DNA of 64,000 nucleotides from Eledone cirrhosa (taxonomy: Eukaryota). Shown piece by piece: positions 11,865-13,056 of this stretch (positions within the stretch are counted from its first letter, which is position 1; every line of letters begins with the position of its first letter). The translations under genes and the position numbers were made by a program. The notes below the pieces were generated by a model. The model ran no database searches. It was not told where the DNA came from and worked only from the letters and a program-made list of their open reading frames with translations. The stretch is taken from assembly GCA_964016885.1 (NCBI GenBank), contig OZ024745.1, positions 36,022,001 through 36,086,000 of the forward strand, read 5' to 3'.

Positions 11865-12065
11865 AGGAAAAGAGTCAGAACCCCGACGGCAGAGCTCAAG
11901 CCGTTTAAACAGCTATTTCTGGATAGTTTAGAAATAGCTGTCGAAAACGGCTTGAGCTCTACCGTCGGGGTTCTGACTCATTTCCTTTTACCCACTCTAC
12001 TACCCAAAGTATCGAGTACTCTGGTGCGTTATGTTCCACCTGTTCCTTATCACACTTCCTTCGTT
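11865..12065 (+). mobile_element. Family A element with 5' fold-back (arms ~11865-11920 / 11930-11985)
   Basis: Inverted arms and family homology read directly; (TA)n on both sides. Confidence 0.8.
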
Positions 12066-12679
12066 ATATATATATATATATAGGTGTGTATCGCAGACCG
12101 CCTATGCGGATAAATCCCCTGGGTATATGTTTTGGAAACATAGTGTTATTTCTCCTAACGCTTGGAACTGCAACCAATGGATGTGCTTCGTAGGGTGCTG
12201 ATATGATACGGAGAATCGACCTGTTACAAGGCGATATAACTGGAGAGCACCATACTTCCTATGAACAATCATACATGTAAAGCTGCACCACCGCTAAGCA
12301 ACTATTCTTCTCACAGACTCATGCTTGCAAGCTCTCTTGATCTGCCTGCACACCCTGTATTTGCACTGCTTGTGATTTGATGTATCTATGGTTTGCTTTT
12401 TTATGTTATTGTTTTTTTTATTATCATGCTGAGTAACACCTTCACTCATTCCTTGCTACACTGTCACAATCTCCTTATCATCTATTGCACCATTTATGTG
12501 ATACATTTTTGATATAATATTTGATGTAATTTTTTATGACATTTTATGATATTATGTGCGTCATGTATTGGTTCTTTTTCTATATAGCGCTGAGCTCGAG
12601 ACCCCCCTGCTGGTCCTTTAACCTTATTCTGATGACGCAGCTTGATGGAGCATGCAACTATTTATATACTCTTGTTTAT

Positions 12680-12727
12680 AGGTTCTGATGATTCCTGCCA
12701 TAGGGTATGGATGAAACACTGTTAGCT
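12680..12727 (+). ncRNA. Degenerate hammerhead-like motif in a PLE-like remnant (~12080-12775)
   Basis: GGTT-CTGATGA-TTCCTGCC..GGGTATGGAT-GAAACACTGTT-AGCT-AATAAA; a second CTGATGA lies at 12629. Confidence 0.45.
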
Positions 12728-12866
12728 AATAAAAAAATGTATTTCTAAGCACTCTTTGGTTATTTCCTAAAATGATATATATAAATATATATATATATAT
12801 ATATATATATATATATATATATATATATATATATATATATATATATATATATATATATATATATAT

Positions 12867-13056
12867 CAGAAAGTGTGTGGTAAAATACCAGGTGGACCAT
12901 AACCCATCAGAGTACTCGGTGCTTGGAGTTATAGAGTGGGTAATATGAAAAGAGTCATGACACCGACGGCTGAGCTCAGACCGTTTCGACAGCTAGATCC
13001 GAGTTTGGATCTAGGTGTCGAAACGGCCGGAGCTCACCCCTCGGTGTCCTCTTTTC
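12867..13056 (-). mobile_element. Family A element with fold-back
   Basis: Reverse-orientation homolog; hairpin apex at CTAGATCCGAGTTTGGATCTAG. Confidence 0.8.

What the first reader, a model, noticed from the sequence alone, without database searches (positions are those of the whole stretch)
11865..13056. Family A: one element, fold-back apex at different pre-existing hairpins, suggesting snap-back cDNA self-priming
Four copies (331, 11865, 12867, 43867) share a fixed 3' end at (TA)n but differ at the 5' end. One has no clear inversion, two invert about the hairpin immediately before GAAAC (the position of hammerhead stem II), and one inverts about the GAGCTC palindrome. Inference: nascent cDNA folds on an internal hairpin and copies back on itself, replacing the CUGANGA half. 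This would give a sequence rule for PLE inverted pLTRs.
Basis: partly seen in the sequence, partly recalled or inferred. Interest (0 to 1): 0.7.

Follow-up and report, generated by a model that had tools for sequence, protein, structure and literature searches.

The report
Penelope stubs joined at RNA start
These small DNA hairpins are back-to-back stubs of a very abundant Penelope-type jumping gene, and they likely form when two separate DNA copies each run off the capped start of the element's RNA and are joined, not when one copy folds back on itself.

Summary
The four copies are real and belong to a family of about 28,000 or more insertions in (TA)n. Snap-back does not. Each insertion is two arms, one with and one without an 80-nt tail (28,708 vs 28,036). 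The tail-less arm reaches further 5' in 54 of 117 pairs, 10 pairs do not overlap, solo arms end at the same place, and the product of folding on native stem II has 0 genome-wide matches. About 70% of arms stop in a 14-nt window inside stem II. That window sits at an initiator-like A about 29 nt after a TATA-like box, often with one extra non-templated G (39 of 60 double-ended junctions). Best reading: two target-primed cDNAs run off a capped RNA start and are end-joined; long copies use an RNA without that end. No RNA data were available. I found no paper stating this, but the scan already reached it on other DNA of this genome.

The parts
329..340 (-). copy 331: 12-nt inverted arm (element positions -7 to -18; G of GAAAC = 0), starting at an internal TA
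   Evidence: native sequence
341..472 (+). copy 331: tail-bearing arm, from -12 through stem III, cleavage site and 80-nt tail, ending in (TA)n
11866..11923 (-). copy 11865: tail-less arm, +40 to -16
11924..12064 (+). copy 11865: tail-bearing arm, from -19 (two substitutions) or -13 plus a 6-nt insert, to the tail end
12083..12774 (+). unrelated ~690-nt repeat between the two family A copies, with its own minimal hammerhead-like motif at 12685-12725; not family A
12867..13001 (-). copy 12867: tail-bearing arm of an older subfamily, tail end to -14/-15
   Evidence: (L124)
13002..13056 (+). copy 12867: tail-less arm starting at A-18; the base before it (13001) is G, which may be the partner arm's base or a cap-derived G
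43868..43971 (-). copy 43867: tail-bearing arm, tail end to +16
43966..44002 (+). copy 43867: tail-less arm, +3 to +40; overlaps the other arm by 6 nt of stem III and supplies the loop

Best explanation
Family A is the hammerhead-bearing end of a Hydra-clade Penelope-like retrotransposon, and each short insertion is two head-to-head arms that likely come from two separate target-primed cDNAs, both of which likely ran off the capped 5' end of the element's RNA inside hammerhead stem II before being end-joined. Shown: parent ORF, hammerhead consensus, one tailed plus one tail-less arm per insertion, arm ends clustered at -10 to -23, extra G before A-18 and A-13. Inferred: both nicked strands of a (TA)n target prime reverse transcription, at +40 and +120; the RNA starts at an initiator-like A (-18, minor -13 and -22) about 29 nt after a TATA-like box; the G is the copied cap; joining is mostly blunt or by 1-2 nt. 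The roughly 12% of arms that pass this point likely come from an RNA without that end (read-through tandem or ribozyme-made circle).
For: Parent element: L166 has a 786-codon open frame after the pLTR with RT and C-terminal GIY-YIG; L121 links the unfolded hammerhead to the same ORF. Arm counts 28,036 tail-less vs 28,708 tailed. Census of 231 arms: stop rate 11.8% per nt in -10..-23 vs 0.6% and 1.0% per nt on either side. 117 tail/no-tail pairs: tail-less arm longer 54, tailed longer 46, equal 17; 10 non-overlapping. Extra G, hand counts of listed rows in a subfamily with native T at -19: solo arms at -18, G 32, none 50, A 8, T 9, C 1 of 100 rows against 4.6% G background after ATATAT. G before -17/-15/-14 in only 1 of 34 (Fisher p 8e-5). 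Both arms at -18, with no target DNA involved: 39 of 60 elements carry a non-native G, 11 native A/T, 10 nothing. Template jumps: 9 of 30 tail-to-ORF loci have an ORF-proximal piece followed directly by a new arm starting at -15..-21. Poly(T) stutter at -21 in 4 elements. In vitro, a PLE protein cuts and extends both strands, starts at two internal sites, and gives shorter products on 5'-shortened RNA (PMC11167929). Untemplated G as a cap signature: PMC4859970.
Against: No RNA 5' end was observed; promoter and cap are inferred from DNA. In the 231-arm census alone the G excess was not significant (5 of 18 vs 15 of 64, p 0.76). Ends spread over 14 nt with several peaks, so trimming or several starts must be assumed. 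The two arm ends are weakly correlated (rho 0.28, p 0.007, n 88) and microhomology is above the permuted null (mean 1.25 vs 0.66 nt), so joining is not fully random. TATA and initiator calls rest on recalled consensus motifs. An RT can add a C at an uncapped end too. None of 13 loci with 1.5 kb or more of ORF begins at -15..-19, so this RNA is not the usual template of full-length copies.
Confidence: 0.75

Rival explanations
1. Two cDNAs, but they stop because of the ribozyme itself: RT is peeled off as stem II re-closes, or the RNA is cut near the apical loop, so the end is not a transcription start.
For: The hot spot lies on the 3' strand of a predicted upper helix of stem II, just before its apical loop. 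Stutter at the U run at -21.
Against: RT passes the stronger lower stem (-1..-9) at 0.6% stops per nt. The extra base is G only before A-18 and A-13. Long arms come in pairs (40 of 100 rows) rather than by independent read-through.
Confidence: 0.13
2. One reading: one nascent cDNA snaps back on an internal hairpin and copies itself.
For: Arms share the subfamily in 68 of 73 pairs vs 20.6 shuffled. Ends are weakly correlated, and a few junctions use stem III homology (window copy 43868). Self-priming is proposed in PMC3846280.
Against: Tail-less arm longer in 54 of 117; 10 non-overlapping; 56 of 117 have inserted bases and 46 have 0-1 nt overlap. 0 genome matches for the stem II snap-back product. 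Solo arms share the hot spot. The tail on one side only is unexplained.
Confidence: 0.05
3. Long palindromes were trimmed or their loops flipped after insertion, producing the varied apexes.
For: Perfect 55-bp hairpins are unstable and spacer inversion is known (general knowledge); this could swap which arm looks longer.
Against: It does not explain solo arms ending at -17/-18, the position-specific G, jump junctions at the same site, or tail-only arms.
Confidence: 0.04
4. A MITE or a fixed palindromic master element copied whole.
For: Short, palindromic, TA-flanked, very high copy number.
Against: Junctions differ from copy to copy, the tail lies outside the inverted repeat, and the arms continue into an RT/GIY-YIG element.
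Confidence: 0.02

Closest known systems
Hydra clade of C-terminal EN+ Penelope-like elements, incl. Hydra-1_Obim (Craig et al. 2021, PMC8557442; passages and supplement look-ups)
   Same: DKT, RWx, CxCx5C, CxxC and CxH motifs, no CCHH, hammerhead, (TA)n targets. The Hydra-1_Obim protein shown in the supplement matches L166 motif by motif by eye (not aligned by tool).
   Different: A different family: other hammerhead sequence, and two family A motifs have 0 hits in the supplement. Unit about 3.57 kb vs under 3 kb; tail 80 nt vs 30-40; mostly U3-A8 core. The passages I read give no fixed inner end or cap signature.
Canonical PLE insertion: inverted 5'-truncated copy plus one-sided tail (PMC8557442; PMC3846280 passages)
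   Same: Same architecture, including head-to-head junctions with palindromes.
   Different: There attributed to self-priming or endonuclease resolution; here the junction statistics favour two cDNAs and a fixed RNA end.
Poseidon PAc in vitro (Frangieh et al. 2024, PMC11167929; parts 1-2 of 4 read)
   Same: Both strands cut and extended; two internal RT start sites bound the tail; AT-rich target.
   Different: Other clade; it does not address inverted junctions or transcription start. There the ORF starts at stem II, here the ATG is about 214 nt downstream.
PLE hammerheads (Cervera and de la Pena 2014, PMC4209133; parts 1-2 of 4 read)
   Same: Type I fold, short stem I, long stem II, palindromic loop III, U3-A8 variant, circular-RNA proposal for tandems.
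   Different: Most copies here lose the 5' half of the core at a fixed point.
L1 twin priming and cap-derived 5' G (PMC4859970 passages; twin priming itself recalled)
   Same: Two primings on one target; extra G at a complete 5' end.
   Different: In L1 the inverted piece lies upstream of the direct piece; here both arms cover the same sequence.

Membership tests
Hydra-clade PLE | single ORF with RT and C-terminal GIY-YIG | tested here: met
   L166:3079-5439, 786 codons. Atlas neighbours score 0.99 (cnidarian, ctenophore) and 0.96-0.97 with GIY-YIG/RVT families. Pfam itself gave 0 families.
Hydra-clade PLE | DKG changed to DKT; RWK motif | tested here: met
   DKT present; RWR instead of RWK (features)
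Hydra-clade PLE | CCHH absent; CxCx5C linker; CxxC and CxH near the EN end | tested here: met
   read from the translation
Hydra-clade PLE | hammerhead in pLTR and (TA)n targeting | tested here: met
Hydra-clade PLE | placement in an RT phylogeny | not tested
   no tree built
Hydra-clade PLE | generally under 3 kb | tested here: not met
   unit 3,531-3,572 nt in six young copies; a descriptive tendency, not a diagnostic
Type I hammerhead ribozyme | core boxes, G10.1-C11.1, stems I-III, NUH site | tested here: met
   19 of 20 long copies parsed; most keep 5-bp stem I, GUC site and G-C at 10.1/11.1. Position 3/8 is U-A, C-G, U-G or C-A. Rfam found no hammerhead in the window, where the copies are truncated.
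Type I hammerhead ribozyme | self-cleavage | not testable with these tools
   needs an assay
MITE | fixed TIRs at both ends, fixed interior, DNA transposase partner | tested here: not met
   variable junctions, one-sided tail, RT partner
Snap-back (self-primed) product | second arm nested in the first, native loop kept, pairing at the turn | tested here: not met

The most novel reading that the evidence does not exclude
This element makes two RNA templates. A capped linear RNA starts inside its own hammerhead, so it lacks the 5' half of the core, and both-end priming on it gives tens of thousands of palindromic stubs. A ribozyme-processed circle, cut by the one complete 3' core, has no 5' end and gives the full-length, partial-tandem copies with long inverted repeats. 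That would explain inverted pLTRs, tails and tandems together.
Probability: 0.3. Interest if true: 0.75.

Novelty: new member of a known kind. Interest (0 to 1): 0.55.

Why it matters
How Penelope-like elements make inverted repeats and one-sided tails is described as undefined (PMC8557442). Thousands of junctions here argue for priming from both target strands and against self-priming. They point to a sense, capped template and name the nucleotides at which a CAGE or in vitro test decides the matter. The process also seeds a large animal genome with tens of thousands of near-perfect 55-bp hairpins, likely ADAR substrates if transcribed (compare PMC5625713, passages; not tested). Curators could easily mistake these stubs for MITEs.

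Tried and rejected
The repeat finder was swamped by (TA)n. Rfam gave only low-complexity hits. The first CTGANGA search returned mostly chance flanks because the gap was too short and most cores are U3-A8. One search was a faulty parse, replaced. The census was too small to show the G excess. No RNA holder listed, so no reads were laid. Pfam and PDB gave nothing for the ORF. Ribozyme cleavage as the arm end was rejected: the site is +22, and only 4 of 234 paired ends lie there. Splicing was considered, since AG acceptor-like sites lie at -17 and -12 and an exon ending GAG would mimic the G; rejected because only a single G, no longer exon remnant, appears. A retrovirus-like strong-stop with repeat transfer as the route to full-length copies was rejected: 0 of 13 long-ORF loci start at -15..-19. 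G from target microsatellite interruptions was rejected by background and by target-free junctions.

Full report
Observation. The window lies in a 3.0-Gb animal genome. The four copies exist and align at 74-89%. Positions below count from the G of GAAAC = 0. Read against unfolded copies, every window copy is two arms head to head. Copy 331 has a 12-nt inverted arm (-7..-18) plus a tailed arm from -12. Copy 11865 has a tail-less arm to -16 and a tailed arm from -19 or -13. Copy 12867 has a tail-less arm from -18 and a tailed arm to -14/-15. Copy 43867 has a tail-less arm from +3 and a tailed arm to +16, overlapping by 6 nt of stem III.

Family and parent. A 26-nt core has 58,187 exact hits. Arms ending at +40 in TA number 28,036 and arms continuing into the tail 28,708, about one of each per insertion. 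6,447 arms run through a complete hammerhead core (different pattern, so 11% is approximate; the census gives 28 of 231). The core is mostly U3-A8, with C3-G8, U3-G8 and C3-A8 forms. L121 and L166 tie the hammerhead to an RT plus C-terminal GIY-YIG frame with the Hydra-clade motifs of PMC8557442. The supplement's Hydra-1_Obim is a relative but another family. Young units are about 3.57 kb. The window's own PLE fragment at 52782-53714 is a different lineage (28% over 72 aa).

Junction census. I fetched the hits listed for the first 22 Mb of contig C1 (first 100 rows each; one row, already held as L017, left out): 231 unique arms. One search gives 28 long arms, 117 tail/no-tail pairs, 25 solo arms and 3 same-type pairs. 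Selection required one arm to reach stem III, so very short elements are missed. 174 of 234 paired ends and 18 of 25 solo ends fall in -10..-23. The stop rate there is 11.8% per nt against 0.6% and 1.0% beside it. The tail-less arm is longer in 54, the tailed in 46, equal in 17 (p 0.48). Ten tailed arms are tail only. Overlap is 0-1 nt in 46 pairs, 2-6 nt in 15, and 56 carry inserted bases. Mean overlap 1.25 nt exceeds the permuted 0.66, and ends correlate weakly (rho 0.28). Arms share the subfamily in 68 of 73. The sequence expected from folding on native stem II has 0 matches. Snap-back therefore cannot be the general route, while two cDNAs, one per start site, explain the one-sided tail directly and match the in vitro behaviour in PMC11167929. 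A similar bulged hairpin follows each start site (26 of 36 aligned columns identical), a lead taken from earlier scan notes.

Why the arms stop there. A TATA-like box lies at -47 and initiator-like pyrimidine-A steps at -22, -18 and -13 (consensus recalled). Counts by hand from listed rows, in a subfamily whose native base at -19 is T: solo arms at -18 have an extra G in 32 of 100 rows (124 hits in all), background 4.6%. In one search (100 of 161 rows) G precedes -18 in 30 and -13 in 13, but -17, -15 and -14 in 1 of 34. Where both arms end at -18 and no target is involved, 39 of 60 elements (100 of 302 rows) carry a non-native G, two of them on both arms; one search agrees (41 of 50) but includes a subfamily with native C. 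An extra G is the accepted trace of a copied cap in L1 and SVA (PMC4859970). The census alone does not show it. In 9 of 30 tail-to-ORF loci (68 hits in all) a piece ending +163..+940 is followed directly by a new arm from -15..-21, with G before A-18 in the three that start there, as expected if RT jumps from an RNA end to another RNA.

Long copies. None of 13 loci with 1.5 kb or more of ORF starts at -15..-19; 11 run through the hammerhead. Long arms occur as pairs (20 pairs in 100 rows, hand count; about 12% expected). In four young copies with both repeats (L323-L326) the repeats are 97.2-99.6% identical, about as much as the inverted arms (98.4-99.7% in L323-L325). One segment of L166 is 96.8%. 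This fits a second template class without the -18 end, tandem read-through or circular; I cannot tell which.

What is known. The architecture is described (PMC8557442) and self-priming was proposed for it (PMC3846280). A promoter in the pLTR is known for Drosophila Penelope (PMC2377424, passages). I read part 1 of 5 of bioRxiv 10.64898/2026.07.22.740005, which does not address this there. Eight paper searches showed no paper stating run-off at a capped start inside the hammerhead; subscription papers and Repbase were not searchable. I wrote this reading before seeing earlier scan notes; searches then showed several follow-ups in this genome with the same conclusion. They are not independent support.

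Verdict. Interest 0.55.

Noticed in passing
window 12083-12774: A second ~690-nt repeat family (1,467 candidates, 40 scored) with a minimal hammerhead-like motif and AATAAA near its end; several copies form inverted pairs.
   Followed up: partly
window 51663-54286: Another PLE: 310-aa RT/GIY-YIG fragment (52782-53714, minus strand) between 389-nt inverted ends, 98% complementary; distant from family A's protein.
   Followed up: partly
window 23445-33707: Two tandem, partly broken non-LTR RT elements on the minus strand, each bordered by (TTA)n; resemblance to R4/Dong-type elements is recalled, not tested.
   Followed up: no
window 58522-61944: Open frames that look like hAT-type transposase pieces (recalled likeness).
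   Followed up: no
window 3554-4437, 16312-17851, 42781-43147, 47135-49216: Further long inverted repeats, 96-99% complementary, probably other fold-back insertions; hammerhead-like motifs also at 10532 and 18142 on the minus strand.
   Followed up: no
L117, L136, L243, L261: Runs of 9-17 extra T at the junction next to the native TTT at -21..-19, suggesting reiterative synthesis by this telomerase-related RT.
   Followed up: partly
L166:3105-3231: Twin bulged hairpins just after the two RT start sites.
   Followed up: partly
L227: The same solo arm three times in tandem inside (TA)n, likely duplicated after insertion.
   Followed up: no
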